Positions 15,514 through 63,406 are shown, counted from the stretch's first letter. The stretch is DNA of 64,000 bases from an uncultured Spirochaetia bacterium (GCA_964349515.1 CAYGHG010000001.1:2528-66527), one strand, 5' to 3'. A program made the numbers and translations. The notes: a model not told the origin generated them from the letters alone.

Positions 15514-15514
15514 T

Positions 15515-30468: not shown

Positions 30469-30481
30469 GCTTTCACCTCAT

Positions 30482-31174: not shown

Positions 31175-31193
31175 ATGCCTTTCTCCTTAAACT

Positions 31194-31628
31194 TTATTCT
31201 TCTATTTTAACGCCCATACTGCGCGCCGTACCTTCTACCATCAATTCAGCAGACCTCTGCTTTGTCGCATTCAAATCAGGCATCTTTTTCTTTGCAATTT
31301 CAGCCACCTGTGCTTTTGAAAGCGTGCCTACCTTCGTTTTGTTAGGCTCCCCCGAACCCTTTATTATATTTGCCGCTTTCTTTATTAATACGGCAACCGG
31401 CGGGGTTTTCATAATAAATGTAAAGCTTCTGTCTTCAAATACATCTATAACCACCGGGAATATCGTATCCCCTTCGCTCTTGGTCCTGTCGTTAAACTGT
31501 TTGCAGAAATCCATGATGTTTACACCGTGCTGGCCGAGCGCCGGCCCTATAGGCGGGGCGGGGTTTGCCTTTCCCGCCGGAATCTGCAGTTTTATCTGTG
31601 TCATCAGTTTCTTTACTTTTGGTGCCAT
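31194..31628 (-). CDS. rplK: 50S ribosomal protein L11
   Basis: 144 aa ([37 protein letters not shown]). Confidence 0.95.
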
Positions 31629-31640
31629 GACTGCCTCCGT

Positions 31641-32192: not shown

Positions 32193-32204
32193 TTATACCA
32201 CTCC

Positions 32205-32387
32205 TTAACCAAAAATAAATTTTACGGCTTTAGAAAGCAGGAAGTCTATAACGCCTATGTAAAACATCAGAAGAAATCCGACTATCACGACCACAATAGT
32301 AGAAGCAATAATTGTTTTTCTGTCGGGCCACGACACTTTCTTCAGCTCTACCCACGCCGCTTTCAGAAAATCTATCAATTTCTTCAT
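32205..32387 (-). CDS. secE: Preprotein translocase subunit SecE
   Basis: 60 aa with a single TM. Sits at the conserved position before nusG. Confidence 0.85.
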   Translation of the reverse strand: MKKLIDFLKAAWVELKKVSWPDRKTIIASTIVVVIVGFLLMFYIGVIDFLLSKAVKFIFG

Positions 32388-32469
32388 TCTTCCACCTTTT
32401 TACCGCCGCCTTGAGCGGCTTAATATTTCACTCTGCTTTTTGTCCGGCACATTAACGCCACAATATTTC

Positions 32470-32546
32470 TGGCAGGCCAGGCAGGACTCGAACCTGCAAC
32501 GGACGGTTTTGGAGACCGCCGCTCTACCAATTGGAGCTACTGGCCT
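32470..32546 (-). tRNA. tRNA-Trp (anticodon CCA), 77 nt including the encoded 3' CCA
   Basis: Reverse complement reads AGGCCAGTAGCTCCAATTGGTAGAGCGGCGGTCTCCAAAACCGTCCGTTGCAGGTTCGAGTCCTGCCTGGCCTGCCA. It folds as a cloverleaf with anticodon loop CTCCAAA. Lies between rpmG and secE as in many bacteria. Confidence 0.85.
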
Positions 32547-32694
32547 ACTTGGTCTCCTTATGGAGAGTGTGCTTTTTGCAGAATTTACAATGCTTTTTTA
32601 ACTGCAATTTATCCGTGTGCGTTTTTTTGTTTTTTGTCTGGGTATAATTCCTTCTTTTACACTCAGAACACGCCAATGTTATTATCTCTCTCAT
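32545..32694 (-). CDS. rpmG: 50S ribosomal protein L33 (zinc-binding form)
   Basis: Hand translation gives [49 protein letters not shown] (49 aa). The TAG stop shares its last 2 nt with the tRNA-Trp 5' end. Below the ORF-track size cutoff. Confidence 0.8.
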
Positions 32695-32710
32695 TTTAAA
32701 CCGCCATCCT

Positions 32711-33918
32711 TATTATTCTAATATCTCGGAAATAACTCCGGAGCCTACTGTCCTTCCGCCTTCGCGGATTGCGAACCTTAATTCTTTTTCTATGGCTATC
32801 GGCATTATCAGCTCTATTTCCATGGTTATGTTGTCGCCGGGCATTACCATCTCAACTCCCGCCGGCATCTTTATCGAGCCGGTTACGTCTGTTGTCCTGA
32901 AATAAAACTGCGGCCTGTAGTTGTTAAAGAACGGTGTGTGCCTTCCGCCCTCTTCTTTTGTCAGTACGTACACACGCCCCATAAACTTCTTATGCGGCTT
33001 TATCGAGCCGGGTTTTGCCACTACCTGCCCTCTCATGACCGCGTCCTTGTCGATTCCCCTAAGCAGCAGCCCTACGTTGTCTCCCGCCTGCCCTTCGTCC
33101 AGCAGTTTCCTGAACATCTCAACACCGGTTACCACAGCCTTCTGCGTGTCCTTTAATCCTATTATCTCCACTTCCTCGTTTACCTTTACTTTGCCTCTTT
33201 CTATCCTTCCCGTTACCACTGTCCCGCGCCCGGTTATTGAGAATACGTCTTCTACGGCAAGCGAGAAAGGTTTGTCTATCTCCCTCTTAGGCTCCGGAAC
33301 GAAATCGTCTATCGCCTTTACAAGCTCCACTATCGAATCCCCGCCCGGTCCGCCCGGGTCCTGCAGCCCTTTTAATGCCGAGCCTCTTATAACCGGTGTT
33401 TTGTCTCCGGGAAAATCATATTTCTTCAGCAGGTCCCTTACCTCTTCCTCTACAAGATCCACCATCTCTTTGTCATCCACCATGTCTACCTTATTTAAAA
33501 ATACCACTATGTGCGGTACGCCTACCTGCCTCGCAAGCAGTATGTGCTCCCTCGTCTGCGGCATCGGCCCGTCTACTGCCGATACTACCAGTATCGCGCC
33601 GTCCATCTGCGCCGCTCCGGTTATCATGTTCTTTACATAATCGGCGTGCCCGGGGCAGTCTACATGCGCATAATGCCTCTTGTCCGAAGAGTATTCCACA
33701 TGCGATGTCGCTATTGTCAATATTTTTGTCGCGTCGCGCCTTCCCTGTGATTCTGACGCCTTTGCCACCTCATCGTACGGTACATATGTCGCAAGCCCTT
33801 TTGCCGCCATTACATTCGTAAGCGCAGCAGTCAGCGTTGTCTTGCCGTGGTCTACGTGCCCTATCGTTCCTACGTTTACGTGCGGCTTTGTCCTGTCAAA
33901 CTTTTCCTTTGCCATTTT
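32711..33918. repeat. About 1208-bp direct repeat copy B, covering tuf
   Basis: See copy A. Flanks diverge immediately outside the CDS. Confidence 0.85.
32713..33915 (-). CDS. tuf: Elongation factor Tu (copy 2, in the tRNA-Thr/tuf/rpmG/tRNA-Trp/secE context)
   Basis: 400 aa, 100% identical to copy 1. Confidence 0.95.
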
Positions 33919-47716: not shown

Positions 47717-48337
47717 TCATTTTATTGTGACAGAACCGCCGTCTGTTTTAATCCGGCCCTCACAGAAAAGTTTTACCGCTTCAGGGTAGGCCTTATGCTC
47801 CTCTGACAACACCCTTTTCTGAAGTATCTCAGGCGTATCGCCCGCCTGCACGGGCGCCCTGCGCTGCAGTATCACAGGGCCCGTGTCTGTGCCGTAATCC
47901 ACGAAGTGCACGGTGCAGCCTGTTTCCTTTACCCCTGCTTTTAGCACGGCTTCGTGCACGTGTATTCCGTACATTCCTTCGCCGCCAAAATCAGGAAGCA
48001 GTGCGGGGTGAATGTTCATTATTTTTCCCTTATAAGTATCTATAAAAACTTTTGACAACACCCGCATATATCCCGCGAGGCAGATTAAGTTTATGCCCTC
48101 CGCGTTCATAACATTCGCCGTTTCAAGGTCAAAGGCTTCCCTTGATTCAAAATCTTTCGGTAAAAGGCACACTGTTTTGATCCCGGCTTTTGCCGCCCTC
48201 TCAAGCCCGTAGGCGCCCTGTTTATTGCTGAAGACCAGGCATATTTCACCGCCTGTAATATGCCCCGAAGAAAATGCGTCAATCAAGGACTGCAGATTGC
48301 TTCCGCCGCCTGATACAAAAACCGCTGTTCTCACCAC
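47717..48337 (-). CDS. purN: Phosphoribosylglycinamide formyltransferase
   Basis: MVRTAVFVSGGGSNLQ... matches PurN. Confidence 0.9.
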   Translation of the reverse strand: MVRTAVFVSGGGSNLQSLIDAFSSGHITGGEICLVFSNKQGAYGLERAAKAGIKTVCLLPKDFESREAFDLETANVMNAEGINLICLAGYMRVLSKVFIDTYKGKIMNIHPALLPDFGGEGMYGIHVHEAVLKAGVKETGCTVHFVDYGTDTGPVILQRRAPVQAGDTPEILQKRVLSEEHKAYPEAVKLFCEGRIKTDGGSVTIK

Positions 48338-49188
48338 TACTTTTTACCTTCCCTGTCCCATACCGGAATATACAAGAAACGCACTGTGAGATACAGCCTG
48401 TGCCCGTGGCCGAATAGCACAAGTTCGGCCCGCGTCTGGCCTTTTTCCCAGAAATAGTAAATATTGCTCGGCTTGCCCCTGACAGAGCCCGACTTTACAT
48501 GTTTTATTTTAGCGGAAGCCGGAGCGCCCCGCAGATCGTCTTTTGTAAACATAGGCCTGCCGTAGAGCCGGGTAAATACGTCAAAGAGCCCGATGAACCT
48601 GCCGTACATTATCTCATCAATATTTGGTATCTTCAGTGCCTCGGCCTTAAAAACCTCTGACGGCCCGAACTCAAATTTTACGGCATAAAGCCTGCCCTCA
48701 TACATGCCGAGGCTCATAAAGTTGGCGTGGGGCACTTTAATTTTAAACTCACCCTGATTGACCGCGATGGAAGATACAAAGTCCGGGTCGCGGCTGTCGG
48801 CAGAGTATGGGTAAAAGAGCCTTATCTGCCCGGCATTCATTCCCCAGCCCAGCCCCATAAGGCTGAACGAGGCGTCTGTAACTGAAGCAAAAGCAAGCTC
48901 ATCAGCCTGAGTGTAAATCTGCGAATATTTTTTGACAGCCTCAGCCTTTGACACCGACTTGAAATATGACATCGCGGCAAACCCGGCTGCGCCGAGCACT
49001 GCCAGTACCCCGCCGAGTATTATCCAGAACCTTATAACCGCTTTTCTGTGGCGTTCGTCATACTTAACCGCCGCCTTTTTTTCCGTTTTCGGCAGCGGCG
49101 AGCCGCACGAAGCACAAAAGCTCGCGCTTTCCCTGTTATGTACTCCGCACGCTTTGCAAGTTTTCACCTGAACCTCCGGGCGATTCAA
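48337..49188 (-). CDS. Membrane protein with N-terminal cytoplasmic zinc ribbon and extracytoplasmic domain of unknown function
   Basis: CKACG...CASCG, then one TM, then an about 200-aa domain. Overlaps the stop of the giant gene. Confidence 0.4.
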   Translation of the reverse strand: MNRPEVQVKTCKACGVHNRESASFCASCGSPLPKTEKKAAVKYDERHRKAVIRFWIILGGVLAVLGAAGFAAMSYFKSVSKAEAVKKYSQIYTQADELAFASVTDASFSLMGLGWGMNAGQIRLFYPYSADSRDPDFVSSIAVNQGEFKIKVPHANFMSLGMYEGRLYAVKFEFGPSEVFKAEALKIPNIDEIMYGRFIGLFDVFTRLYGRPMFTKDDLRGAPASAKIKHVKSGSVRGKPSNIYYFWEKGQTRAELVLFGHGHRLYLTVRFLYIPVWDREGKK

Positions 49189-52100
49189 TTTTTCTTTTCT
49201 TTTTTTATCTTTCTTATTCCGTACCTTGTAATTTTCTGGGAAACTTCCCCCTTTGCGGTGACCTGGTAGAGGTATATGCCGTCCTCTGTACCGGAAGCGC
49301 TCCAGAAGGAGTTGTTATAGGCCTTTCCTTTTTTCTTTTCATCAATAGTCGCCACTATTTTACCCGATTCGTTATACACCTTTATGCTTACAGCGCTGTT
49401 CTCGGGGATAAAGTAGTTGAATATTATCCTGTCATTTGACTCGTCATACATCGCGAATATCTCAGAAGATATGTTGAGGACTTTCTCGGGCTCGTCCGAG
49501 CGCAGCTCTATGTCTTCTATTATCTGCGGCGGCAGGTTCTTTCCGAGCACTTTTACCTTTATCTTTGCGACAGGCAGGTTGTCTATTATGTAATTGCCGT
49601 CCTTGTCGGAAATACCCACGCCGAGGGATATACCGTCGTCTTTAAGCACCTCCACGGTGGCGCCCGGAAGCGGCATTATGCCGTTTGACTGGGTAACCGC
49701 ACCTTTGAGCGATACTTTTGTCTTGACCCTCGCCCTGAAGTGCACCGCGGTCTTTCCTATCACGCCCTCCCTGTCGACAGATACTATGTGGAAGTACCAG
49801 ACACCGTCGTTTATTTCAACAGGCCCGGCGTTTGTATCCATTGTCTTGCTGTTTTTGGGCGAAGGGATGGTCTTTTCAAAATTATCAAGCACATAATAAT
49901 AGCCTATGATGTCATTTACATAAGACATCGCCTTCCACTGCATTTTCAGGTTTTTTTCCCTGTACCACTTGTTTTCATCGGGATGTGTCGGCGAGTAAAC
50001 AAGAGGCGGCGGCGGAGTCATTGCGACATTTATCTGGAAATGGGAGGACTCGGCTGATATGTTGCCTGCTGTATCCTTTGCAATAACGTGCAGATACCAC
50101 GTGCCGTCAGGCACATCAACAAACGAGGCCATGGTGCCGCGCGTCCAGCTCGCGGTAGTGATGTCGGGCACGGAATCTTTTATCTGGTTAAAAAGATAAT
50201 AATACCCCTCTATCCCCGCCGGGTCGGGAGGGGTGGTCCAGGAGAACGACGGCGAGTTGTTGTTAAACCAGCGGTTGAAATCCGCGTGCGTGATTGAAGA
50301 TATGACAGGCGGTTTCGGCCTGGTCGTGTCTATGTTAATCTGGAAGTGCGTGGCTTCCTCGGAGATATTTCCCGCTTCGTCCTTTGACACTACATGGAAA
50401 TACCACGTGCCGTCGCCTGTCTGCGGAAATGATATTTCATTGTCAGTGTACCACGTGCCGTTTTTTGCCTCAGGTACGGTGGCGGGTATCTGGTCAAATA
50501 TGTAGTAGTAACCGGTGATTTTAGTTGCGTCCTGCGGGGTCTCCCAGTTTAAGTTTATGTCTTTTGTCGCGTACCATTGCTCCTGCATAGGGTGGGTTGC
50601 CGAGCGGACGACAGGCGGCATCGCATACCTGTCGCAAATCGCGAGCACCTGCTTGTTTCCGCTCTCGCGCTCATTTCCGACTTTGTCAACACCGCGTATG
50701 GTGTAATAGTAAATGATTCCGTCCTCAAGATCCGGCGAAGAGTCGGTAAACCTGGTGTCAGTCACCGCGCCGTCGTCGCATATCTGCATCCCGAGCTGCC
50801 CGGAGACCGACGAGCGGTAAACCCTGAAGTAGTCAAGCCCGCTGACCGAATCTGTGACCTTGTTCCACTCAAGCCCCACCACGCCGTCACGCAAGGGCTT
50901 TGCCGCCACCTGTGTCACCTGCGATGGCGGGGATACGTCTATTGTTACCTTTGCCGAATCCACTTCATAATACTCCGACCAGTTGCCTGCGTTATCGCGC
51001 GCTTTTACGCGGAAGTAGTAGGTGATGCCGTCTTCGCCTTTGAAGACCGCTTTCATTGTTTTGGTCTCTTTGAGCCACGTTTTCCACTTGCCCTTATCGC
51101 CCTCTTTGTATTCAACAAGAAAGCCGTATATGCCGGATTCCCGGTCTTCGCCGTCCCACTCCACTTCAAAAGATTCCGAGTTGACGAATTTTTTAAGCTC
51201 TTTCAGGTGCACGTCAGGCGGGTTTGTTTCAATCTTGAATCTGTAATGGGCCGCTTCCGTGCCTGTGTTTCCGGCTATGTCCTTTAACACCGCGTGAAAA
51301 TACCATTCTCCGTCTTCAAGCGGTTCCGTAATCTTCACCGTACTTTCTTTTGTAAATTTTCCCGTCTTTCTTTCGGGCATGTTATCAGGGGTTTTATCAA
51401 TCTTGTAATAAAAACCCTCCACACCCGAGAACTCATCTGATTTTTCCATGGTGAAAACCGGGCTGCGCTCGCAGTAATACCTGTCGTGGTTGGGGTGTGT
51501 GGGCGAGAAGACCTCGGGCGGGTCGGCCTTTAAATCCACATTGATTGTAAATATTGCCGGCTCTTCGCCGATGTTGCCTGCATTGTCCTCGCTTACGATA
51601 TGAAAGAAGAAAATGCCCTCGGAATCCACCTGTATTTCAGCCTCACGTTTGTCTGTTGTAATCGTCATCTCGGGAAGCAGCTTCATATGCTTCTCGCGCG
51701 AGAAGAGATAGTGGAACTGTTTTATTTTGGAGAGGTCCTGCGGCACGGTCCAGCCGAGCTTTATGACCGGGTTGTTGTACCACTTTGCCTCGTCAGGGTG
51801 CGTCGGCGAGCTGAGCTTCGGCGCCTCAACAGCGGTGTCTATTTTCATCCTGAAGTGCGACGCTTCCCAGCCGGTGTTTCCCGCATTGTCTTTTGAAATT
51901 ATGTGGAAATACCATATGCCGTCTTGCAGCCTCGGCAGCGATACCTGGTTTGACGTCGTCCACTCCGCGGTCTCCCGCGCGGGGACGGTATTGTTTTTCT
52001 GGTCGCAGCAGTAGTAATAACCCTCGACGCCTGACAGATCCTCCGGTGTATCCCAGTGAAGCTCAGGGATGGCGTTGCTGTACCACATTTCTTCGTCGCG

Positions 52101-54731
52101 GTGCGTCTTTGACATGACTTTCGGCGGTTTTGCAGCAGTGTCTATATTGAACCTGTAATGGGAGGCCGCTTTGCCGATGTTGCCTGCCCGGTCTTTTGTG
52201 GTAACGTGTATGAACCAGCCTGCGTCCTTTAAGTCTCCGGAAAATATTGTGTCCTTGTCCGTCCAGGAGCAGGTGTCGTCAGGAACTGATTTTTCATTGT
52301 TGTCAATGGAATAATAATACCCTTCTGTGCCGGATAAATCCTCAGGCTGGCTGATTTTAAACTGCGCTTTTTTTATATTGTACCATTTGTGCGGGTCGGG
52401 GTGGGTTACCGACGATATATTCGGAGGCAGTGCCTGAGTGTCTATGTTAAACCTGTAGTGGGTGGTTTCTTTTGAAATATTGCCCGCGGAGTCTTTTGTC
52501 TTGACGTGCAGATACCATGTGCCGTCTGTTTTCGCGGGCAGTTTTATGTCGCTTGACGCCGTATAAACCCACTCTGATTCGTGGGGCTCTGTATCGGGCT
52601 TTGCATCAACGCAGTAAAAGAACCCCTCCACTCCGGATAGGTCATGGGGCCGCGCAAAATGCGCCTCTGTTTCTTTTTCGTTATACCAGGACTTTTCGTC
52701 AGGGTGCGTCCTGGAGGTCACGACAGGCGGGGAGACCTGCGTGTCTATGTTGAGCCTGAAGTGATAAGCTTTTGTACCGGTGTTGCCCGCCTTGTCCTTT
52801 GAAACTACGTGGAAATATTTTACCCCTTCTTCCAGCGGCGGCGTTTTTATGTGGGTGTCTTCCGTATAAGCGCCTGTTTTTTCATTGGGCACGGTGCCGG
52901 GCACTTCATCTATTACATAGTAATAGCCCTCTATGCCCGAGAGATCCTCCGGCGCCTCCCACTTTAAGACAGGCATATTGTTGTTGTACCATCTGGAGGC
53001 GTCAGGATGAGTCGCGGAAGTGACCTCAGGGGGCATCGCCGCTGTGTCCACTCTGATTGTAAAGTGCGAAACCTCGGGGCTGATGTTGCCGGCCTTGTCC
53101 TCTATGAGGACGTGGCAGTACCACACGCCTTCGTCCAGATTTTTAAGCACCACGCTTTCCTTTACCGTTGCCTGGCATTTCGCAGGGTCAGGCTTTGTCT
53201 CCGGATTTCTGTCCACAAGGTAAAGATAGTTTTTAACATCAGAATGCACGCCCCAAAACACCTCTGCGTCCGCTTTATTGTACCAGCGGTTCTGCTCGGG
53301 GTGTGTCTGCGATGAGAGCACCGGCGTTACCGCCGCAGTGGTGGTGAATTTATAGTTTTCAGCCACCCCGGAAAAACTGCCTATGTCGGAATATGTGAGT
53401 ATCCTGAAACTGTAATCCGTCAGTGACTTGAGGTTGTTGAGGGTTATCCTGTGCTTTGCTGTTTTTAACTCATTTACTATGTTGTTGCCATAGGCCTCGT
53501 CGGTTCCGTATTCAATTATGGTTTTCGCTTCCCTGTCAGTGTCCCAGGTTATTACCGCGCTGTGGGAGGTAATCTCGGAAATTTTAACATTATGCACGCT
53601 CGGCGGCGGGGTGTTGCTGATTGTCGTCCTGAAAATACGCCCCTTTGGAGAGGAACCGAAATAAAGGTATCCGTTGAAAAGGCATATCGCCCTGATGTCC
53701 TCCTCATCGGTCTGAAAAGCGAGCTCCCATTTTTTTCCGTCAAGGCTTTTATATATCCTGCCGTTGTCTCCGCTGCCCACGTATAAGCTGTTGGCAAACG
53801 AGACAAACCTGTAGAAGTTTACATCCTTTTCAGAAAAGAAGTTTTCCACCCAGTTGGTGCCGTCCTCAGTCATAAAAATAAGCCCGCCCGAGGCTTTTGA
53901 GGTGGAGGCGTAGAGCCTGTTTTGAAAAACATAAAAATCATTTATGAAACTCTGGTTTGTGTCAAAAACCTTCTGCCAGTTAACACCGTCAGAGGTGCGG
54001 TATATCATCCCGTTGGGGTAAGTGCCTGCGTAAAGATAATCCCTGAAAAGCCCGAAACAGGCTATCGCGAGTTCAGGGGTGTTGAGCGATACCACCCAGT
54101 GGCTGCCGTTATAGCTGTATACTTTTCCCTCTGTTGAGGTGCCTGCAAAAAGCCTGCCCTTAAAAGCCTCAAGGCAGTGTATCCTCGCCTCACCGCTGTT
54201 AAAAGAGAGGCTCCACTTTTCGCCGTCTATAGTCTCATATATCCCGCCGTTTGCGTTTGTGCCGCTGAAAAGTTTTGTAGTGCCGAGGTCGTTAAAAGTT
54301 TTTAGACAGTAAACCTGCGGAGTATAGTCCCCCAGCCCCTCCTCGCTGAATGATTTCGTCCTGCCTACAGGAGGGTTGAAATATGGGGAAAAAATATTTG
54401 CAATCGAGAGCTGTTCCCACGCGCCCACGTCGCCTGTCGTGCTTCGGATTACGGAATCTTTGTTTGTGCAGGCGTAGAGTCTGCCGTTAAATTCCTGAAA
54501 GTCGTATATGATGGGTGTGGAGGGGCTGTCAAATACCGGTATGAAGGATTCTTTAGGCACATAGCGCAGGTAAAGCGGTATCGCGGCTTTGATATTTTTT
54601 ACAACCTCGCCGGGACTTTTGCCCGAGACCACAAGCCCGGGCATCTCCGTGCACTCGCCTATGAATTTTCCTTCCTGCTCTTTTACGGACACGTCAAAAC
54701 TGACCGTAATCTCCCTTTGTTTTTCCTTCAT
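49185..54731 (-). CDS. Giant (1848 aa) multi-domain cell-surface-type protein: HicB-like N-terminus, beta-propeller, FN3, ten copies of an about 100-aa THPD/WYFH repeat, CarboxypepD_reg-like domain and T9SS-type C-terminal domain
   Basis: Repeats start at aa 476, 574, 675, 776, 876, 977, 1078, 1379, 1481 and 1582. Consensus is THPDxxxWYNxxxPxFxWxxPxDLSGxEGYYYxxD...DGxWYFHVxSKDxAGNxxxxAxHYRFNIDTxxPP. The C-terminus ...VSIKVYNESGKIVATI...GIYLYQVTAKGE... matches the Por/T9SS sorting-domain pattern. Confidence 0.7.
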   Translation of the reverse strand: MKEKQREITVSFDVSVKEQEGKFIGECTEMPGLVVSGKSPGEVVKNIKAAIPLYLRYVPKESFIPVFDSPSTPIIYDFQEFNGRLYACTNKDSVIRSTTGDVGAWEQLSIANIFSPYFNPPVGRTKSFSEEGLGDYTPQVYCLKTFNDLGTTKLFSGTNANGGIYETIDGEKWSLSFNSGEARIHCLEAFKGRLFAGTSTEGKVYSYNGSHWVVSLNTPELAIACFGLFRDYLYAGTYPNGMIYRTSDGVNWQKVFDTNQSFINDFYVFQNRLYASTSKASGGLIFMTEDGTNWVENFFSEKDVNFYRFVSFANSLYVGSGDNGRIYKSLDGKKWELAFQTDEEDIRAICLFNGYLYFGSSPKGRIFRTTISNTPPPSVHNVKISEITSHSAVITWDTDREAKTIIEYGTDEAYGNNIVNELKTAKHRITLNNLKSLTDYSFRILTYSDIGSFSGVAENYKFTTTAAVTPVLSSQTHPEQNRWYNKADAEVFWGVHSDVKNYLYLVDRNPETKPDPAKCQATVKESVVLKNLDEGVWYCHVLIEDKAGNISPEVSHFTIRVDTAAMPPEVTSATHPDASRWYNNNMPVLKWEAPEDLSGIEGYYYVIDEVPGTVPNEKTGAYTEDTHIKTPPLEEGVKYFHVVSKDKAGNTGTKAYHFRLNIDTQVSPPVVTSRTHPDEKSWYNEKETEAHFARPHDLSGVEGFFYCVDAKPDTEPHESEWVYTASSDIKLPAKTDGTWYLHVKTKDSAGNISKETTHYRFNIDTQALPPNISSVTHPDPHKWYNIKKAQFKISQPEDLSGTEGYYYSIDNNEKSVPDDTCSWTDKDTIFSGDLKDAGWFIHVTTKDRAGNIGKAASHYRFNIDTAAKPPKVMSKTHRDEEMWYSNAIPELHWDTPEDLSGVEGYYYCCDQKNNTVPARETAEWTTSNQVSLPRLQDGIWYFHIISKDNAGNTGWEASHFRMKIDTAVEAPKLSSPTHPDEAKWYNNPVIKLGWTVPQDLSKIKQFHYLFSREKHMKLLPEMTITTDKREAEIQVDSEGIFFFHIVSEDNAGNIGEEPAIFTINVDLKADPPEVFSPTHPNHDRYYCERSPVFTMEKSDEFSGVEGFYYKIDKTPDNMPERKTGKFTKESTVKITEPLEDGEWYFHAVLKDIAGNTGTEAAHYRFKIETNPPDVHLKELKKFVNSESFEVEWDGEDRESGIYGFLVEYKEGDKGKWKTWLKETKTMKAVFKGEDGITYYFRVKARDNAGNWSEYYEVDSAKVTIDVSPPSQVTQVAAKPLRDGVVGLEWNKVTDSVSGLDYFRVYRSSVSGQLGMQICDDGAVTDTRFTDSSPDLEDGIIYYYTIRGVDKVGNERESGNKQVLAICDRYAMPPVVRSATHPMQEQWYATKDINLNWETPQDATKITGYYYIFDQIPATVPEAKNGTWYTDNEISFPQTGDGTWYFHVVSKDEAGNISEEATHFQINIDTTRPKPPVISSITHADFNRWFNNNSPSFSWTTPPDPAGIEGYYYLFNQIKDSVPDITTASWTRGTMASFVDVPDGTWYLHVIAKDTAGNISAESSHFQINVAMTPPPPLVYSPTHPDENKWYREKNLKMQWKAMSYVNDIIGYYYVLDNFEKTIPSPKNSKTMDTNAGPVEINDGVWYFHIVSVDREGVIGKTAVHFRARVKTKVSLKGAVTQSNGIMPLPGATVEVLKDDGISLGVGISDKDGNYIIDNLPVAKIKVKVLGKNLPPQIIEDIELRSDEPEKVLNISSEIFAMYDESNDRIIFNYFIPENSAVSIKVYNESGKIVATIDEKKKGKAYNNSFWSASGTEDGIYLYQVTAKGEVSQKITRYGIRKIKKEKKN

Positions 54732-55240
54732 TTCGCTCCCTTTTTAAAAATATTGAGTATGAGCGCCGATTCGTCACAGTCCGGGAATTTTGGGCACGAG
54801 AAGCAGTCTTTCCATATTTTATGGGGCAGCTTGTTTTTTGGTATTGGCCTGAAACCGTTTTTTTTGAAAAAATCCGGAATTTTGGTAAGGGCAAAAACTT
54901 TTTTAGTGCCTACGTTCTTTGCCTCTTTAAGCGCTTCTTCAAGCAGCATCGCACCGTAACCTTTTCCCCTGTACCTTTTTTCAAGCACGAAAGAGCGTAT
55001 CTCAGATAAATCCTCCCAGTAAACGTGAACCGCAATAACACCTGCGAGTTTCTTTCCGTCAAAAGCCACGATATAATCCCGTATCTGTGAGTAGAGGTCT
55101 GCAATAGACCTTTTCAGCAGATCTGCCTCTGCGGAGTATTTTTTTATAAGTTCCTGTATTTTGTATGCATCCTGTATCCGTGCCCGTCTAATTTCCAATT
55201 TTTCTCCTTTGAATAAAGGCAAAAATCGGGAAAAAAGCAT
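54728..55240 (-). CDS. GNAT family N-acetyltransferase (short NAGS-like)
   Basis: Acetyl-CoA binding motif (RYRGKGYGAMLLEEAL). Its stop overlaps the giant gene start (ATGA). Confidence 0.65.
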   Translation of the reverse strand: MLFSRFLPLFKGEKLEIRRARIQDAYKIQELIKKYSAEADLLKRSIADLYSQIRDYIVAFDGKKLAGVIAVHVYWEDLSEIRSFVLEKRYRGKGYGAMLLEEALKEAKNVGTKKVFALTKIPDFFKKNGFRPIPKNKLPHKIWKDCFSCPKFPDCDESALILNIFKKGAK

Positions 55241-55447
55241 ATTTTCCCGGCCGCGCGCATAAGTATATGTGCAAATTTTAATTATTATATTATAAAGGGT
55301 TTAATATGGCAAGGCTTGAATTGGGGAGTGTAACAAAGTTTGAAATACAGCCAAAAGACAGAATACACAAGTTATTGAATCACTGCTATTTCCTTGCCCG
55401 ACGCCTTTAACCTTCCATTTTATTAAGTCATTAAAACATAGTCCTTC

Positions 55448-56825: not shown

Positions 56826-57995
56826 TCACCCCGCCCTCATCACATTCATTACAACCTTCACCATCGTGTCTTTTTCCGCCGGTGCGCTTATCGCGATTAA
56901 AAGAGTGAGCGAGGCAAGTGCCCCTGAGCTTATGGTTTTTGCCCCGTCAGCCCTGTAGAGCAGGCGGTTCTTTGCCAGATAGTGTAAAAATAAGATGGCT
57001 GCTATTCTCTTATTGCCGTCGGTAAAGGGGCGGTCTTTTACGGCAAAATACAGCAAATTCGCGGCTTTTTCCTCCGCGGTTTTGTATAAGTCTTTCCCCG
57101 CAAAAGACTGGTTGACCGCTCCTATCAGGCTTTTTAGTTTTTCACTCCTGCCCTTGCCGAACAACGCCGAGGCCTTTCTTTGCTTCACATATTCAGCCCG
57201 TGCTTTTTCAATCACACCGGCCGCGCCCTCAAACGTAAGCTCATACTCCTGTTTGCTTCTGCCTGCCGCTTTTAGTTTCATGTCATCGTAGTCCTGCAGG
57301 ATATTCAAAGAGTCGGCAAAGCTTTTAATTACTGATATGAGCTCGGCTTCCAGCCCTATGAAGTTTTCATCAGACATAGATCTTGCCATTATATCAACGG
57401 CTGTTTTCAGACCTTCGAATGCCTTTAACTTTTCCCTCAGCACTCTCTCATTTATCGCATACCCTTTGACCATGTATTTTTTAAGAACATCTGTAGCCCA
57501 TATTCTGAATTTGGTGGCTTTTGATGAATTCACCCTGTATCCGACCGATATGACGGCATCCAGGTTATATTTATCCACCGACCTTTTCACGTATCTTCCG
57601 CCCTCAAGCTGAACTGTTTCCATTTTGGAAACAGCTGCCGTTTCGTTGAGTTCCCCTTGTGCAAATATGTTTTTCAGGTGTTTGGAAACAGCAGGCACAT
57701 TTACTCCAAAAAGATGGGCAATCTGCAGCTGGCTCAGCCACAGGCTTTCGTCATACACAGTGATTTCAATTCCGCCTGTTTTTTCATCAGGCTTGAAAAC
57801 TATCTGCCTCCCGTATTCTTCAACTTCTTCTTCACGAAGCATAAAAGATCCCGCTTCATCAAAAGAAATCGCATAATCCCTGCCGGTTTTTTTTGCCTTT
57901 ATCTGCCCCTTCTTTACCTTCTTATAAACCGCAATCCTGCTTATGTGCATCAGTTTTGCCAGTTCCGGAATGCTGTAAAACTCCTTTCTTTCCAT
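56826..57995 (-). CDS. HTH - RhuM family - Fic/Doc-like fusion protein
   Basis: N-terminal excisionase/MerR-type HTH (IPELAKLMHISRIAVYKKVKKG). RhuM core (ISVGYRVNSSKATKFRIWATDVLKKYMVKGYAINE). C-terminal degenerate Fic motif RPFTDGNKRIAAI. Confidence 0.65.
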   Translation of the reverse strand: MERKEFYSIPELAKLMHISRIAVYKKVKKGQIKAKKTGRDYAISFDEAGSFMLREEEVEEYGRQIVFKPDEKTGGIEITVYDESLWLSQLQIAHLFGVNVPAVSKHLKNIFAQGELNETAAVSKMETVQLEGGRYVKRSVDKYNLDAVISVGYRVNSSKATKFRIWATDVLKKYMVKGYAINERVLREKLKAFEGLKTAVDIMARSMSDENFIGLEAELISVIKSFADSLNILQDYDDMKLKAAGRSKQEYELTFEGAAGVIEKARAEYVKQRKASALFGKGRSEKLKSLIGAVNQSFAGKDLYKTAEEKAANLLYFAVKDRPFTDGNKRIAAILFLHYLAKNRLLYRADGAKTISSGALASLTLLIAISAPAEKDTMVKVVMNVMRAG

Positions 57996-58172: not shown

Positions 58173-60941
58173 TTATTTTAGTACTATCAGCGTCTCAATT
58201 CTGCTCTTCACGGTTTTTCCATTTTCTTGGAGAGAATATACGTAATAGTAGTATGTGCCCGGGGATAGCCTGTTCAACCCTGCGCCTTCCAGCCTCAGAT
58301 TGTTGACTCCCTTTGATGCAGGATAGCACCCGCTGTCCCATACAAGCCTATAGGCGCTTGAGTACACCCTGATTCCGGCCTTTACCGGAGAACCGTTCAG
58401 CACGCAGTTTATGTTCAGGAACCCTGCGTGCTGGGTATATGGGTTGGGATAAGCAAAAACACTCCCTGCCGCAATTTCAACCGGCGTGACAGTTGCAGTA
58501 AAATCAACACCCGGAGTCTGCGTGCAGGTTGCGGTAAATGTCACCGCGAGCCCCTCTGTTACCGTGTTTGTTGCAGTCATAACTGCCGTAGCCGTATATG
58601 TTTCAGCCGGCGTTAAAAACTGCGTAGGCGTATCAGTCGGCACAGGAGTATTATCAGGAGTCTGCGTTGCAGTTGCAGTTACAGTTACAGTTGCTGTCAA
58701 CGTGGCTGTTGCTGTTTCCGTCGCAGTGATTACAGCAGTGGGAGTATGAGTAAGTGTATGAGTAAGCCCGGCAGTAGCCGTCGCAACTGCGCCTCCCGGC
58801 GAACACCAAATATTCTGAACAGATCCTGCAGCAGAACTTCCGCCTGCTATCCACATTTTCCCCTGGAACACCGCTGACCCGGCTCTGAACCTTGACACAA
58901 ATGCAGCTGCAGCTGTTTTCTGCGTCCAGATTTTGCCGTCAGCCGAAGCCCACACGTCATTATAGCTCGGGGTAAAAATACCGCTCACCCCGGCGGTCAT
59001 GTACATATGTCCCCCGTACGAAATAAGGTTTGAATCGCATCTTGCGGCATAAGGCGCGGCTGCGGTTTCCTGCACCCAGTTTACACCGTCAGCGCTTGAC
59101 CATACGTCGTTATAATAAACGCTGACGACATTGCCGTCAAAGGCTCCGTTAGCCGCATATATTCTGCCGTTGTGAACAACTGCCGACAGCATGCTCCTGG
59201 GGCTGAAACCCGCTGATTTAACAGCCCTGTTCCACATTTTCCCGTCAGAAGACCACCACACGTCATTTACCGGTGTGCCGTTCACATTGCCCGCGATGAC
59301 ATAAATTCTGCCGTTAAAAACCACGGCCGCAAAACCCCTTCTCATGCCGAACCCCGCGTACGAAGTTTCCGTGGTCCAGCTTATGCCGTCCGCAGACGAC
59401 CACACCTGAGCAGAATTGCCGCCACCTATCATGTACATTTTCCCGTTGAGCGTGACAAATTTTGAATCGCTAAGATCCGGGAAGTCCGCAGCTGCCGTGG
59501 CCTGAGTCCACGCGATGCCGTCAAACGATGACCAGACATCCCGTTTGCCAGCCCCCGCAAGCATCCAGAGTCTTCCGTCATGGACAAGCATTCCCATCCC
59601 TGCGCGGCTAAAAACAGTACCCGCGGCTTTTTGCTCCCATTCCATTCCCGGGCAATTGGCAACGCACACAGTCTCAGTGGCTGTAGGCGCAACAGGAGGC
59701 GTATCAGTAATTGTCGGGGTGGCTGTAAAACAATTATTGTTATTAAATGTTACCCTTAGCACGTCACCATCCCAGCCTTCAATTGTGACATCAAGTCCTG
59801 AGTCCGCTCCGCTCCACCATTTCGAGTCAGGGCTGGAAGCGCTGTTAAAAACAGTGCCAAACACACCGTCAAAGTAGTCGTCAGCAGCACCCGGGTGGGC
59901 CCTGTTTTCATAATGATATTGTCCGTCCGCCTGTTCAAAAGAAACCATCAGATGCTGGGACGGCGTAAATCCGGGATTTTCATTTGTGTTCATGGTTTCG
60001 TCAACATGCCAGATAAGCAGGCCGCTGTTGAATATCCCTTCGTACCTGCCTTTTTTCTGGACCGCTTCCAGATAGAACACTTCGCGGGGGTTCGCGGGGT
60101 TCACAAGTTTGTAGGCCTCGTATGTGTTGGCCTTTATCGTAACCGACAAACATGGCGTCACTGTGTCAACCGTCCTCGTAACAAGCCAGCCTGAAACATC
60201 TCTTAAGTATGGTGACGGAGGCACGGGGTTTGTGTTCAACATAATACTGCTCATAAGGCAGTTTTCCCCCACTCCGGAACCCATACCCGCATACGGCACC
60301 TGATAAAGATCAATCCACTCGGTAATTGTATGCCCCAGTTCATGGTTAAATATACCCATTCGCGGGCTGCTGCTGAATTGGCCTATCGCATCTGTGAAAT
60401 AGTACCGGCAGCTTACGCCGTCCGCAGAGAAAGTCAGACCTGAGCGATGAGCTGAGCTGATGGGAGAACCTGCGTAGAGAAGCCCGACGAAGAACCTGTT
60501 TGTACCGGGCACTTTTGCTATTGTGGAGTAGTCAAAACCGCTTGCTTCAAGATGATTCAGGACTTCCAGAGCAAGAGCCCTGCACCCCGCAGGAAGGCCC
60601 AGTCCAACGTAATAACTTTTCGGGTGAGCTGCCCTGTAATAGTATGTCATCGGCTGAAAATTCAGGGTCAGCCTGCCTTTTGAAACATCCAGAAAATAAT
60701 CCCTCACCGATCCGTTCAGCCCGTACAGGTTCGTTCCCGGCGCGTTAAGAAACGTATTTATGTCCGAGGCGGGTACATCTGCGGGACTGTCCGAAAAATC
60801 AGCCAAAAGAATGAGTATATTATTTACAGTACCTGTAACAGGCGCCGAGGCGTATGTGGAAAACGCTATAGAACCCGGAGAAAAAACCAAAAATACAATA
60901 CCTGCCAGAATCCCCTTATAAAAAACATTTTTTATGCTCAA
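58173..60941 (-). CDS. Secreted M6-family-like zinc metalloprotease with Kelch-type beta-propeller, Thr/Ala-rich linker and T9SS-type C-terminal sorting domain
   Basis: Signal peptide, M6-domain-like N-terminus (LILLADFSD...) and HELGH zinc motif. Six Kelch-like blades (GRLWM, GKMYM, GRIYV, GRIYA, GHMYM, GKMWI). TATVTVTATA linker. C-terminal domain YPNP...IRVYSSAYRLV...GTYYYYV. Confidence 0.6.
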   Translation of the reverse strand: MSIKNVFYKGILAGIVFLVFSPGSIAFSTYASAPVTGTVNNILILLADFSDSPADVPASDINTFLNAPGTNLYGLNGSVRDYFLDVSKGRLTLNFQPMTYYYRAAHPKSYYVGLGLPAGCRALALEVLNHLEASGFDYSTIAKVPGTNRFFVGLLYAGSPISSAHRSGLTFSADGVSCRYYFTDAIGQFSSSPRMGIFNHELGHTITEWIDLYQVPYAGMGSGVGENCLMSSIMLNTNPVPPSPYLRDVSGWLVTRTVDTVTPCLSVTIKANTYEAYKLVNPANPREVFYLEAVQKKGRYEGIFNSGLLIWHVDETMNTNENPGFTPSQHLMVSFEQADGQYHYENRAHPGAADDYFDGVFGTVFNSASSPDSKWWSGADSGLDVTIEGWDGDVLRVTFNNNNCFTATPTITDTPPVAPTATETVCVANCPGMEWEQKAAGTVFSRAGMGMLVHDGRLWMLAGAGKRDVWSSFDGIAWTQATAAADFPDLSDSKFVTLNGKMYMIGGGNSAQVWSSADGISWTTETSYAGFGMRRGFAAVVFNGRIYVIAGNVNGTPVNDVWWSSDGKMWNRAVKSAGFSPRSMLSAVVHNGRIYAANGAFDGNVVSVYYNDVWSSADGVNWVQETAAAPYAARCDSNLISYGGHMYMTAGVSGIFTPSYNDVWASADGKIWTQKTAAAAFVSRFRAGSAVFQGKMWIAGGSSAAGSVQNIWCSPGGAVATATAGLTHTLTHTPTAVITATETATATLTATVTVTATATQTPDNTPVPTDTPTQFLTPAETYTATAVMTATNTVTEGLAVTFTATCTQTPGVDFTATVTPVEIAAGSVFAYPNPYTQHAGFLNINCVLNGSPVKAGIRVYSSAYRLVWDSGCYPASKGVNNLRLEGAGLNRLSPGTYYYYVYSLQENGKTVKSRIETLIVLK

Positions 60942-61858: not shown

Positions 61859-63406
61859 TCACGGTATCAGATATGTGTTCTGGCTCAAACCGTTTTGTCC
61901 AACATTCCCGCCCGCGCCTCCGTTACCCGCTGTTCCCAAAACATATGTTACCCCGCTTAATACAGGTGCCGTTGTGCTGTAAACTATGTTTATCACAGGG
62001 CCGCCTCCTCCTCCTCCGCCCGAACCGCCGTTGCCGCCTTTTCCTCCGTTGCCGCCCGCGCCTCCTCTGCCTGCTGTTCCCTGGCTTGCCGAGTATGCTC
62101 CCGCGCTGCCGCCTGCTCCGCCGTTGCCTCCGCTGCCGCCTGTTCCTCCGTTACCGCCTATGCCTCCGTTGCCTGTTGCCAACTGAGTGTTATTTATAAC
62201 AACCCCCGTGCAGTCAAAAAGCATCAGCGCGACAGAGGCGCCTCCGCCCGTGCCTGCCGTACCGGCCGAGCCTGCCTGTCCGCCACTGCCGCCTCCTCCT
62301 CCGGAAGTACCATACCAGTCACAAAAACCGCTGACACCGCCGCCGGCGCCGCCTCCCCCTCCGCCTCCATAGCCGTGATCACCGTCAGCGCCGCTTTCAC
62401 CGCCTGATGCCGTGTAACCCGACAAAGTAAATACTCCAGCCGATAATCCTGATGCTCCATTTGTGCCGTTTGCACCTGCATTACCGGGCTGTCCTGGCTG
62501 ACCGTTATTTGCAGTTAATCCACCAGCGCCACCCGCACCACCACTGCCCGGTGATACGGCTGAAACTCCGGAAGCACCTGTGCTCCCGCCAAGCCCCGGG
62601 TATCCGCCTGCGCCGCCGTTCCTTCCCCAGCTGCATACTCCGGCAGTACCTCCGGCCGGCCTGCTGCAGGCACCGCATATCCCGTCGTCATTTTCGCATC
62701 CCGGGTTTCCACTGCCGCCGATAGTACCTGCTGTACCTTCCATTCCGTTCATACCATTAGCACCATTTCCGCCATTGCGCGAGGTAAAAGAACATGATTC
62801 TATTATTATATTATCGCAGTTTTTCAGAAACACAGCGACCGACGCACCGCCCTGTACGGTATTGTTGGCGCTGTTAACGCTTAACAATGCAAGGGTTACA
62901 TCATCTGCATTGTCCCCCGTCACAGCAGTGACGCCGCCTGATATTATGCATTCATTCGCCGTGCCGCGCGCCCATGAGTTATGCGCGGCATAGCCGCCGT
63001 AAACAGAAACCCCTGCAGCCAGCATTATGCTTTCATTATAAGTGCCGATAGAAACCAGCACACTCGGTTTGCCCGAAAGTACGGCAGCATCTATTGCAGC
63101 CTGAATAGTTTTTTTAGGGTTATCCAATGACCCGTCGGCGGCATCATCACCTGAAATCACATCTACAAATATGGACATTGACGCATCTCCGTCAATACCG
63201 TCCGAGTTTGTGTCGGTAAATGAAGGATCCGGCAGGTCCACAGGAGTACCGGACACCATAGGAGTCGTTGTGACGGTGGCAGTGGCAGTTACAGTGGCGG
63301 TTACAGTCTGCGTTACGCCGGGTAACACTTCAGAAGGTGTTTTTATTTTAGTACAGGCAAAAAACAAAACAGAAACCACGATAATTGAAACGAGTGTTTT
63401 TTTCAA
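61859..63406 (-). CDS. Glycine-rich (GGxGGxGG repeats) lipoprotein with N-terminal DUF1565-like right-handed beta-helix domain
   Basis: Signal peptide with lipobox-like FFAC. TVTATVTATATV linker. DUF1565-like DGSLDNPKKTIQAAIDAA...GTYNE. Then about 300 aa that are more than 50% Gly. Confidence 0.55.
   Translation of the reverse strand: MKKTLVSIIVVSVLFFACTKIKTPSEVLPGVTQTVTATVTATATVTTTPMVSGTPVDLPDPSFTDTNSDGIDGDASMSIFVDVISGDDAADGSLDNPKKTIQAAIDAAVLSGKPSVLVSIGTYNESIMLAAGVSVYGGYAAHNSWARGTANECIISGGVTAVTGDNADDVTLALLSVNSANNTVQGGASVAVFLKNCDNIIIESCSFTSRNGGNGANGMNGMEGTAGTIGGSGNPGCENDDGICGACSRPAGGTAGVCSWGRNGGAGGYPGLGGSTGASGVSAVSPGSGGAGGAGGLTANNGQPGQPGNAGANGTNGASGLSAGVFTLSGYTASGGESGADGDHGYGGGGGGGAGGGVSGFCDWYGTSGGGGGSGGQAGSAGTAGTGGGASVALMLFDCTGVVINNTQLATGNGGIGGNGGTGGSGGNGGAGGSAGAYSASQGTAGRGGAGGNGGKGGNGGSGGGGGGGPVINIVYSTTAPVLSGVTYVLGTAGNGGAGGNVGQNGLSQNTYLIP

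What the first reader, a model, noticed from the sequence alone, without database searches (positions are those of the whole stretch)
49185..54731. Giant 1848-aa protein with ten copies of a THPD/WYFH domain, HicB-like N-terminus and T9SS-type C-terminal domain but no signal peptide
The protein combines (i) an N-terminal about 60-aa segment resembling a HicB/UPF0150 antitoxin fold (EQEGKFIGECTEMPGLVVSGKSPGEVVKNIKAAIPLYL), (ii) a beta-propeller, (iii) FN3 modules, (iv) ten highly regular about 100-aa repeats (THPDxxxWYN...DLSGxEGYYY...DGxWYFHVxSKDxAGN...HYRFNIDT) that I cannot assign to a named family, (v) a CarboxypepD_reg-like domain and (vi) a Por/T9SS-like C-terminal sorting domain. A T9SS cargo needs a Sec signal peptide, yet the only available start overlaps the upstream GNAT stop (ATGA) and encodes a hydrophilic N-terminus. 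The gene is translationally coupled to a GNAT gene upstream and a zinc-ribbon membrane protein downstream. This is the most likely place in the window for an undescribed surface or secretion-related system, and the repeat may be a novel domain.
Basis: partly seen in the sequence, partly recalled or inferred. Interest (0 to 1): 0.6.

Follow-up and report, generated by a model that had tools for sequence, protein, structure and literature searches.

The report
Leaderless giant fibre protein, HicB-like cap
A 1848-residue protein of Goldbacteria is built like an exported cell-surface fibre (propeller head, rod of 13 fibronectin-like modules, type-IX-secretion-type tail), yet in every relative it starts with a HicB-antitoxin-like domain where the export signal should be, so how or whether it leaves the cell is open.

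Summary
ORF 49185..54731 (-) encodes 1848 aa: a HicB/UPF0150-fold domain, a 7-bladed propeller, FN3, 7 repeats, 2 FN3, 3 repeats, CarboxypepD_reg and a T9SS type-A CTD. There is no signal peptide, TM segment, Tat motif or RTX motif.

The ten repeats are not a new fold. They are FN3/BIg-type sandwiches (AF2 pLDDT 96; best matches FN3 tandems and SiiE). The domain occurs in more than 10,000 representative proteins, most with signal peptides, but no curated model captures a single full unit.

The organism belongs to Candidatus Goldiibacteriota/FCPU426. About 20 species carry an orthologue of 1844-1849 aa; the 18 complete ones (window included) align over 1853 columns with only 12 gapped columns. 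Deeper clades (32-41% identity) keep the same layout, the same HicB-like start and no signal peptide.

GNAT and Zn-ribbon linkage is specific to Goldbacteria. No transporter is linked in any clade. PorV-like genes lie near two distant relatives.

Best reading: a fixed-length surface fibre sorted by a T9SS-like CTD, with an unexplained leaderless N-terminus. Rivals are C-terminus-first export with an N-terminal plug, as in T1SS adhesins, or a cytoplasmic scaffold. This is a new variant of a known kind, of moderate interest.

The parts
54546..54731 (-). aa 1-62: N-terminal HicB/UPF0150-fold domain (beta-beta-beta-alpha-beta), with no signal peptide
   Evidence: Profile against PDB sequences: HicB 6g1c E = 4.8e-5, 6g1n 8e-5, TTHA0281 8.1e-5. 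UPF0150 is the best Pfam family for all 19 N-termini scanned, always below the cut-off. AF2 topology. IMG name for relatives.
53616..54545 (-). aa 63-372: linker strand plus 7-bladed beta-propeller (DUF6242-like). This is the most conserved module (80% mean pairwise identity).
   Evidence: Pfam DUF6242 37 bits. AF2 pLDDT above 90 over the blades. Foldseek returns only generic 7-8-bladed propellers. Conservation.
53331..53615 (-). aa 373-467: FN3 domain
   Evidence: Pfam fn3 / Pur_ac_phosph_N
51219..53330 (-). aa 468-1171: repeats R1-R7, FN3/BIg-type units of ~100 aa with the motifs THPD..WY / DLSG.EGYYY / WYFH..KDxAGN / H[FY]R.NIDT
50622..51218 (-). aa 1172-1370: two canonical FN3 modules interrupting the repeat array
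   Evidence: Pfam fn3 38 bits with two stretches. Found at almost the same coordinates in distant family members.
49713..50621 (-). aa 1371-1673: repeats R8-R10
49452..49712 (-). aa 1674-1760: CarboxypepD_reg-like domain
   Evidence: PF13620 40 bits, cut-off 32.3
49185..49451 (-). aa 1761-1848 plus stop codon: T9SS type-A-like C-terminal sorting domain with a basic tail (RKIKKEKKN)
   Evidence: TIGR04183 33.2 bits alone, cut-off 23. Of 20 family C-termini, 11 match it and 17 match the CTD part of NF052323. Pfam PF18962 24.5 bits, below its cut-off of 27.
54728..55240 (-). Upstream GNAT N-acetyltransferase (PRK07757 type), first gene of the likely operon. A promoter-like site lies at 55312..55284.
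   Evidence: NF005840 182 bits, cut-off 154. Promoter-like TTGCCA-17-TATAAT, 11 of 12 matches. GNAT lies upstream of the giant in all 21 Goldbacteria-clade loci but not in the distant clades.
48337..49167 (-). Downstream Zn-ribbon / single-TM / ~200-aa extracytoplasmic-domain protein (276 aa from a GTG with a GGAGG ribosome-binding site)
   Evidence: Zn_Ribbon_1 23.5 bits. TM segment with KD19 = 2.15. Start site. Present downstream of the giant in every Goldbacteria-clade locus that extends that far (18 of 21; the other three contigs end inside the giant gene). No PDB or PADLOC relative.

Best explanation
The gene encodes a single-copy, phylum-wide conserved structural protein. It forms a rigid fibre of fixed length.

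Shown:
- Thirteen FN3-type sandwiches (1 FN3, 7 repeats, 2 FN3, 3 repeats) and a CarboxypepD_reg domain form the shaft.
- The N-terminal end carries a highly conserved 7-bladed beta-propeller capped by a HicB/UPF0150-fold domain.
- The C-terminal end is a T9SS type-A-like sorting domain.
- There is no signal peptide, and the domain order and module lengths are fixed.

Inferred:
- The fibre is about 50 nm long, assuming roughly 3.5-4 nm per module.
- The C-terminal domain targets the protein to, and tethers it at, the outer membrane through a PorV-like/T9SS-like pathway. The propeller head would then sit at the distal tip, as in other CTD cargo.
- The HicB-like domain is not an antitoxin here. 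It is a structural or targeting module of the head: it has no DNA-binding half and no HicA partner was seen (no dedicated HicA search was run). Its last strand leads into the propeller, possibly closing the last blade; this is read from the strand order alone, because the model coordinates could not be inspected.

Unknown: the step across the inner membrane. It must use something other than a classical Sec or Tat signal.
For: - Domain map and CTD.
- The repeat pair is a confidently modelled FN3 tandem (pLDDT 96.3, pTM 0.82), and its best matches are rod-forming tandems such as SiiE, titin and PTP-delta.
- The repeat is mainly an exported-protein domain. Among the top 150 carriers that start with M, 79 have a signal-peptide-like N-terminus and 9 have the HicB-type start. 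All smaller proteins sharing this propeller type have signal peptides.
- These lineages run an ordinary 'signal peptide + CTD' pathway. Examples are the window protein at 58173..60941 and, in L027, a signal-peptide + CTD protein and a PorV/UPF0164-like outer-membrane protein directly upstream of the giant homologue. There is also a PorV-like gene 8 kb from the homologue in L024.
- In most Goldbacteria loci a Wzy_C (O-antigen-ligase family) + TPR gene follows the giant and Zn-ribbon pair.
- The protein is under strong constraint: 18 complete orthologues, 12 gapped columns out of 1853, 61-80% identity per module. The same 7 + 2 + 3 layout is kept in clades only 32-41% identical.
Against: - No member has a signal peptide, lipobox, Tat motif or TM segment. 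Canonical T9SS cargo need a Sec signal (stated in PMC12618676, listed).
- HicB/UPF0150 domains are otherwise cytoplasmic.
- Frozen length and high sequence conservation are unusual for surface adhesins.
- T9SS core genes (sprA, porU, gldKLMN) were not looked for genome-wide. None was found among the window genes scanned at about 34.7-63.4 kb or in the 10-kb flanks of the four distant relatives that have them.
- No transporter is genetically linked in any clade.
Confidence: 0.45

Rival explanations
1. The protein is a cytoplasmic or cell-internal scaffold or ruler and is never exported. The FN3 rod would act like titin or the cytoplasmic FN3 pair of integrin beta-4. The HicB-like domain would bind a cytoplasmic partner (a HicA-like or dsRBD-like protein, or RNA), and the 'CTD' would be just a beta-sandwich.
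For: - No export signal in any of about 30 members.
- HicB homology of the N-terminus.
- Housekeeping neighbours in all clades: GNAT/purN/purH, mutS, mutL-miaA.
- Frozen length and high conservation fit a ruler.
- Titin and integrin beta-4 cytoplasmic FN3 tandems are among the structural matches.
Against: - Every other domain type here occurs mostly in signal-peptide-bearing proteins.
- The CTD passes the curated T9SS type-A model.
- PorV-like and Wzy_C neighbours point to the envelope.
- I know of no precedent for cytoplasmic CarboxypepD_reg + Por_Secre_tail proteins (own knowledge, not tested).
Confidence: 0.25
2. The protein is exported in one step, C-terminus first, directly from the cytoplasm, as T1SS giant adhesins are (SiiE; LapA with its N-terminal retention module). 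The pre-folded HicB-like domain and propeller would be too bulky to pass and would plug or anchor the fibre in the envelope, leaving the C-terminal domains distal.
For: - A compact, confidently folded N-terminal module, analogous in position to the LapA retention module. That concept is described in the papers listed, for example PMC10990149.
- A weak summed match to the Ca2+-stabilised tandem-repeat adhesin model NF033510.
Against: - No RTX nonapeptides.
- The C-terminus is a folded T9SS-type sandwich, not an unstructured T1SS signal.
- No ABC transporter, membrane-fusion protein or TolC-type gene is linked in any of six clades. The only OEP gene, in L026, belongs to an RND/TetR efflux unit.
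- The propeller is the best-conserved part, which fits a ligand-binding head better than a plug.
Confidence: 0.15
3. Artefact: a wrong start codon, a hicB gene fused by misassembly or frameshift, or a repeat number created by the assembler.
For: Only the general point that metagenome assemblies often mis-call starts and collapse repeats. One orthologue (L019, a long-read MAG) does carry an internal frameshift.
Against: - The same start, with the same HicB-like domain joined in frame to the propeller, is found in 23 loci from independent MAGs and in 9 distant representatives.
- In-frame stop codons lie 1-36 codons upstream, and no upstream stretch is hydrophobic.
- The identical protein is on an independent contig.
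- The repeats are only 23-51% identical to each other.
- Each orthologous repeat is conserved without indels.
Confidence: 0.02

Closest known systems
T9SS type-A CTD cargo proteins of Bacteroidota (for example gingipains and large CTD-bearing surface proteins)
   Same: C-terminal beta-sandwich sorting domain that passes TIGR04183. Modular Ig/FN3/CarboxypepD_reg architecture. PorV-like genes near two distant relatives. An ordinary 'signal peptide + CTD' protein in the same window.
   Different: No Sec signal peptide in any family member; a folded HicB-like domain sits at the N-terminus instead. The host lineage (Goldbacteria/FCPU426) is outside Bacteroidota. T9SS core genes were not demonstrated. 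Length is conserved far more tightly than I would expect for an adhesin.
Giant T1SS adhesins (Salmonella SiiE; LapA-type RTX adhesins with an N-terminal retention module)
   Different: No RTX repeats and no linked ABC, MFP or OMF genes. The C-terminus is a T9SS-type domain. Repeat number is fixed rather than variable.
HicB antitoxins / UPF0150 proteins (HicB 6g1c, 6g1n, 6hpb; TTHA0281)
   Same: The N-terminal ~60 aa share the LPG(C/L)..G.(S/T)..EA..N motif and the beta-beta-beta-alpha-beta topology. Profile E = 5e-5 to 8e-5.
   Different: No C-terminal RHH or HTH DNA-binding domain. No HicA gene was noticed nearby, but no dedicated HicA search was run. The domain is fused to about 1800 aa of exported-type domains. 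All matches are below the Pfam gathering thresholds.
Big_13 / Y_Y_Y / OmpL47-type Ig-like domain families
   Different: No single unit reaches any curated cut-off. The N-terminal PP.V.S.THPD...WY segment and the three conserved histidines are not covered by those models.

Membership tests
T9SS type-A cargo protein | C-terminal domain matching the type-A sorting-domain model (TIGR04183 / PF18962) | tested here: met
   TIGR04183 scores 28.4 bits in the whole protein and 33.2 bits on the last 100 aa (cut-off 23). 11 of 20 family C-termini match. Pfam PF18962 reaches only 23-24.5 bits against its cut-off of 27.
T9SS type-A cargo protein | [quoted passage not shown] | tested here: not met
   Hydrophilic N-terminus (maximum KD over 10 residues is 1.12 in the first 70 aa). 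No TM, Tat or lipobox motif. The same holds in 23 loci and 9 distant representatives. No dedicated predictor such as SignalP was available.
T9SS type-A cargo protein | T9SS machinery (SprA/Sov, PorV, PorU, GldK/L/M/N) encoded in the same genome | tested here: inconclusive
   None was found among the window genes scanned at about 34.7-63.4 kb. PorV-like genes lie near distant relatives in L024 and L027. Whole genomes could not be searched.
HicB antitoxin (type II TA system HicAB) | N-terminal HicB/UPF0150-fold domain | tested here: met
   Profile against PDB: HicB 6g1c E = 4.8e-5, TTHA0281 E = 8.1e-5. AF2 topology beta-beta-beta-alpha-beta. Pfam matches are consistent (19 of 19) but all below the gathering cut-off.
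HicB antitoxin (type II TA system HicAB) | C-terminal RHH or HTH DNA-binding domain and an adjacent hicA toxin gene | tested here: not met
   A propeller follows the domain directly. The neighbours are a GNAT gene and a Zn-ribbon membrane protein. No PADLOC hit. No dedicated HicA search was run; no small HicA-type gene is among the called genes at the Goldbacteria locus L028 or the seven distant loci.
T1SS giant adhesin (RTX / SiiE-type) | Leaderless giant protein made of tandem Ig-like domains | tested here: met
T1SS giant adhesin (RTX / SiiE-type) | RTX nonapeptide repeats or an unstructured C-terminal signal, and a linked ABC transporter, MFP and TolC-like gene | tested here: not met
   No GGxGxD motif. 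The C-terminus is a folded CTD. No ABC or MFP genes in the flanks of any clade. Unlinked T1SS genes elsewhere in the genome were not testable.
Fibronectin type III / bacterial Ig-like (E-set) fold, for the ten repeats | Seven-stranded beta-sandwich with FN3 topology | tested here: met
Pfam Big_13 (PF19077) / NCBIfam OmpL47-type domain (NF047446), for the ten repeats | A single unit reaches the curated score cut-off | tested here: not met
   The two units scanned singly score 16.7 and 24.7 bits for Big_13 (cut-off 27); across all ten units 8 hit it and the best E is 1.7e-5. One unit scores 17.2 bits for NF047446 (cut-off 40). Only the scores summed over the whole protein pass: 119.6 and 66.1 bits.

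The most novel reading that the evidence does not exclude
The HicB-fold domain plus propeller at the N-terminus is a new kind of export or anchoring determinant. It would let a family of fixed-length fibre proteins with a T9SS-type tail reach the cell surface without a Sec signal peptide. Possible routes are binding to a dedicated inner-membrane partner, such as the co-conserved Zn-ribbon membrane protein in Goldbacteria, or C-terminus-first export with the N-terminus acting as a plug. This would define a previously undescribed secretion route in Goldbacteria/FCPU426 and related candidate lineages.
Probability: 0.15. Interest if true: 0.85.

Novelty: new variant of a known kind. Interest (0 to 1): 0.5.

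Why it matters
If the protein is on the surface, it breaks the rule that CTD-sorted cargo need a Sec leader. It would then point to an unrecognised way of moving a 200-kDa protein across the inner membrane in poorly known candidate phyla. If it is cytoplasmic, it would be a rare bacterial titin-like FN3 ruler, and a warning that Por_Secre_tail matches do not prove secretion.

Either way, a single-copy 1848-aa protein that has kept every one of its 18 modules within a residue or two of the same length across about 20 species, and the same layout in much deeper clades, is probably a core structural component of these uncultured bacteria. The ~100-aa 'THPD/WYFH/KDxAGN' FN3 subtype, present in more than 10,000 representative proteins, also deserves a curated domain model.

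Tried and rejected
- Word-index homology searches with the repeat profile and with a diverse N-terminal profile missed the giant relatives. The exhaustive HMM search found them.
- Foldseek with the N-terminal model gave only generic propellers, so it says nothing about function.
- Literature searches found no description of T9SS in Goldbacteria and no HicB-fused surface protein.
- A defence-system reading is rejected. The giant, the GNAT and the Zn-ribbon protein have no PADLOC hits, and there is no HicA partner or DNA-binding half.
- An upstream alternative start with a signal peptide is rejected, because in-frame stops lie 1-36 codons upstream in all loci and no upstream stretch is hydrophobic.
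- A repeat-count artefact is rejected.
- A GNAT / giant / Zn-ribbon three-gene system is rejected as a general feature, because the linkage is absent outside the Goldbacteria clade.
- A flagellar-export reading was considered because of the flgG..flgK cluster upstream in L027. It is not pursued: the cluster occurs in only one lineage, and a terminator separates the giant from the gene immediately upstream of it, the PorV-like gene.
- The Zn-ribbon protein has no solved relative.

Full report
OBSERVATION

The ORF at 49185..54731 on the minus strand exists and encodes 1848 aa from an ATG. That ATG overlaps the stop codon of the upstream GNAT gene (ATGA) and is preceded by GGGAG. Motif searches and a self-alignment give ten ~100-aa units: seven at aa 468-1171 and three at aa 1371-1673, separated by about 200 aa. 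The units are only 23-51% identical to each other. The identical protein is also encoded on an independently assembled ENA contig with the same gene order. The repeat number is therefore not an assembly artefact.

DOMAINS

- Pfam and NCBIfam on the whole protein give fn3, CarboxypepD_reg, Big_13 (119.6 bits summed), an OmpL47-type domain (66 bits summed, cut-off 40) and TIGR04183 Por_Secre_tail (28.4 bits, cut-off 23). Pfam's Por_Secre_tail stays below its cut-off.
- The last 100 aa alone score 33.2 bits against TIGR04183. Of 20 family C-termini, 11 match it, and 17 match the CTD portion of a T9SS-dependent protease model.
- Single repeat units never reach a curated cut-off. Eight of ten have Big_13 as their best hit, best E = 1.7e-5, over only the C-terminal third of that model.
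- A profile of the ten units weakly matches the FN3 domain of Bacillus chitinase A1 (E = 0.04).
- The repeat is therefore an FN3/BIg-type sandwich and not a new fold. An exhaustive HMM search shows the subtype is very common: 10,819 representative proteins at E <= 1e-3 and 497 at E <= 1e-30, many with several full-length units. In other proteins Pfam labels the same regions Big_13 or Y_Y_Y.

N-TERMINUS

- The first ~62 aa match Pfam UPF0150 only weakly in the window protein (E = 0.07). However, all 19 N-termini scanned (the window plus 18 relatives) have UPF0150 as their best family (best E = 1.9e-4), and four also hit HicB_lk_antitox.
- A profile built from the whole family hits solved HicB antitoxin N-domains (6g1c at 4.8e-5, 6g1n at 8e-5) and the UPF0150 protein TTHA0281 (8.1e-5).
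- The AF2 model of aa 1-373 (pLDDT 88.7, pTM 0.82) shows beta-beta-beta-alpha-beta at aa 14-67, followed by a seven-bladed propeller.
- JGI/IMG independently names several relatives 'predicted RNase H-like HicB family nuclease'.
- Fold search with the N-terminal model finds only generic propellers.
- The protein has no TM-like stretch (maximum KD over 19 residues is 1.13), no Tat motif and no RTX motif.

RELATIVES

- The closest database proteins come from Candidatus Goldiibacteriota.
- A scan of species-representative genomes found 23 loci (Goldbacteria/FCPU426 MAGs, some deposited as 'Spirochaetia'), nearly all matching from residue 1.
- The complete orthologues are 1844-1849 aa. All begin with the same HicB-like domain, and none has a hydrophobic leader or an open in-frame upstream extension.
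- Eighteen complete orthologues (the window included) align over 1853 columns with only 12 gapped columns. Each module is 61-80% identical on average, and the propeller is the most conserved.
- The exhaustive search also recovered deeper relatives: P0022, P0024-P0027, P0030, P0031 and P0039. They are 32-41% identical in the N-terminal 373 aa. All keep HicB-N, the propeller and the first FN3 domain, and none has a signal peptide. P0024-P0027 and P0031 also keep the 7-repeat, 2×FN3, 3-repeat layout at almost the same coordinates. P0022 (10 + 3 repeats), P0030 (7 + 2) and P0039 (a different layout and a different C-terminus) vary it.
- By contrast, 79 of the 129 top repeat-carrying proteins that start with M have a signal-peptide-like N-terminus, and only these 9 have the HicB-type start. 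Smaller proteins sharing the propeller type all have signal peptides.

CONTEXT

- Within the Goldbacteria clade, GNAT lies upstream of the giant in all 21 loci, and the Zn-ribbon gene follows it wherever the contig extends that far (18 of 21). Most loci that extend further then carry a Wzy_C + TPR membrane protein before purN - purH. The Wzy_C gene is missing at that position in the window.
- A strong promoter-like site precedes the GNAT gene.
- The Zn-ribbon gene probably starts at a GTG with a GGAGG site, 18 nt after the giant's stop codon.
- The GNAT overlap is not conserved.
- Outside this clade the linkage disappears. Four members follow a miaB-like gene, a TPR/SPOR gene and mutS. One lies beside mutL-miaA with a PorV-like gene 8 kb away. 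One lies directly downstream of a PorV/UPF0164-like outer-membrane protein (separated by a terminator), a 'signal peptide + CTD' protein and a flagellar cluster.
- No ABC, MFP or T9SS core gene is linked anywhere.
- The window itself contains a normal 'signal peptide + metalloprotease + Kelch + CTD' protein at 58173..60941.
- No secretion-machinery genes were found among the window genes scanned at about 34.7-63.4 kb. Positions 1-33 kb look like the ribosomal protein/rpoBC/secY gene cluster from gene sizes alone and were not scanned.
- The giant, the GNAT and the Zn-ribbon protein have no PADLOC hits.

INTERPRETATION

What is shown is a deeply conserved, single-copy protein of fixed length. 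It is built from domains typical of exported proteins and has a genuine T9SS type-A-like tail. Its N-terminus is a conserved HicB-fold domain rather than a signal peptide.

The reading I favour (confidence about 0.45) is a rigid surface fibre. I estimate its length at about 50 nm from 13 FN3-type modules. It would be tethered through its CTD by a PorV-like pathway and would present the propeller with its HicB-like cap at the tip. The inner-membrane step remains unexplained.

Two rivals remain:
- A cytoplasmic titin-like scaffold (about 0.25). This is favoured by the leaderless HicB start, the housekeeping neighbours and the frozen length.
- One-step, C-terminus-first export with the N-terminal module acting as a plug, as in T1SS adhesins (about 0.15). 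This is favoured by the likeness to SiiE. It is weakened by the lack of RTX repeats, the lack of linked transporter genes, and the folded CTD.

A start-codon or assembly artefact is effectively excluded.

COMPARISON AND NOVELTY

- The protein works most like a CTD-sorted surface fibre, but it fails one defining feature of T9SS cargo, the Sec signal.
- It resembles T1SS adhesins in being leaderless and rod-like, but it lacks their signal and their transporter linkage.
- Its N-terminus is homologous to HicB, but the protein is not an antitoxin.
- The repeat belongs to a known fold and to a very large family for which no curated model covers the full unit.
- I rate it a new variant of a known kind, with interest 0.5. 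The anomaly is real, conserved and testable, but no mechanism could be demonstrated here.

Noticed in passing
window 56826..57995 (-): A 389-aa protein with an excisionase-type HTH, RhuM and Fic/DOC domains matches the PADLOC candidate defence family PDC-S23 over its full length (368 bits). It is absent from all orthologous Goldbacteria loci, so it is probably a lineage-specific insertion just upstream of the GNAT-giant operon.
   Followed up: partly
window 58173..60941 (-): A 922-aa protein with a clear signal peptide, a HELGH metalloprotease motif, a Kelch/DUF6242-type propeller, a Thr-rich linker and a T9SS-type C-terminal tail. It is an ordinary 'signal peptide + CTD' cargo and serves as an internal control for the giant protein.
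   Followed up: partly
window 61859..63406 (-): A 515-aa protein with a lipoprotein-like signal (...FFAC), a Thr-rich stretch and a very glycine-rich (GGxGG) C-terminal half. It has no Pfam match.
   Followed up: no
L005:16502-18448 (and the equivalent ~2-kb gap in most Goldbacteria loci that extend far enough); corresponds to the window junction at 48337: In most orthologous loci a ~2-kb gap lies between the Zn-ribbon gene and purN. In L005, the one locus examined, it holds a 648-aa Wzy_C (O-antigen-ligase family) + TPR membrane protein. In the window this gene is missing and the Zn-ribbon gene abuts purN. This may be relevant to glycan attachment of surface proteins.
   Followed up: partly
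L027:8501-9826 and L024:23369-24304: PorV/UPF0164/FadL-like outer-membrane proteins lie near distant homologues of the giant. The one in L027 is directly upstream, carries a C-terminal FN3 domain, and is separated from the giant by an intrinsic terminator.
   Followed up: partly
L025, L026, L029, L030 (mutS) and L024 (mutL-miaA): In four distant members the giant gene directly follows a miaB-like radical SAM gene, a TPR/SPOR gene and mutS. In another it lies beside mutL-miaA. The association with mismatch-repair and tRNA-modification genes is probably coincidental housekeeping synteny, but it recurs.
   Followed up: no
window 49713..53330 (-), every repeat unit: Each ~100-aa repeat keeps three histidines (THPD, WYFH, H[FY]R) and aspartates in KDxAGN and NIDT. 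These may form a metal or Ca2+ site at the domain junction.
   Followed up: no
L019 (CAWJRG010000001.1), about 12850: The orthologue in this long-read MAG is interrupted by a frameshift (the ORF ends after 951 aa, but the C-terminal part is present downstream). This is probably a sequencing error, not a pseudogene.
   Followed up: no
window 1..33000: Gene sizes and order (1212- and 1376-aa genes, then 701- and 400-aa genes, then many small genes and a 442-aa gene) look like the rpoB/rpoC, fusA/tuf, ribosomal protein and secY gene cluster. The giant gene therefore lies in a core chromosomal region. This was not verified by a domain scan.
   Followed up: no
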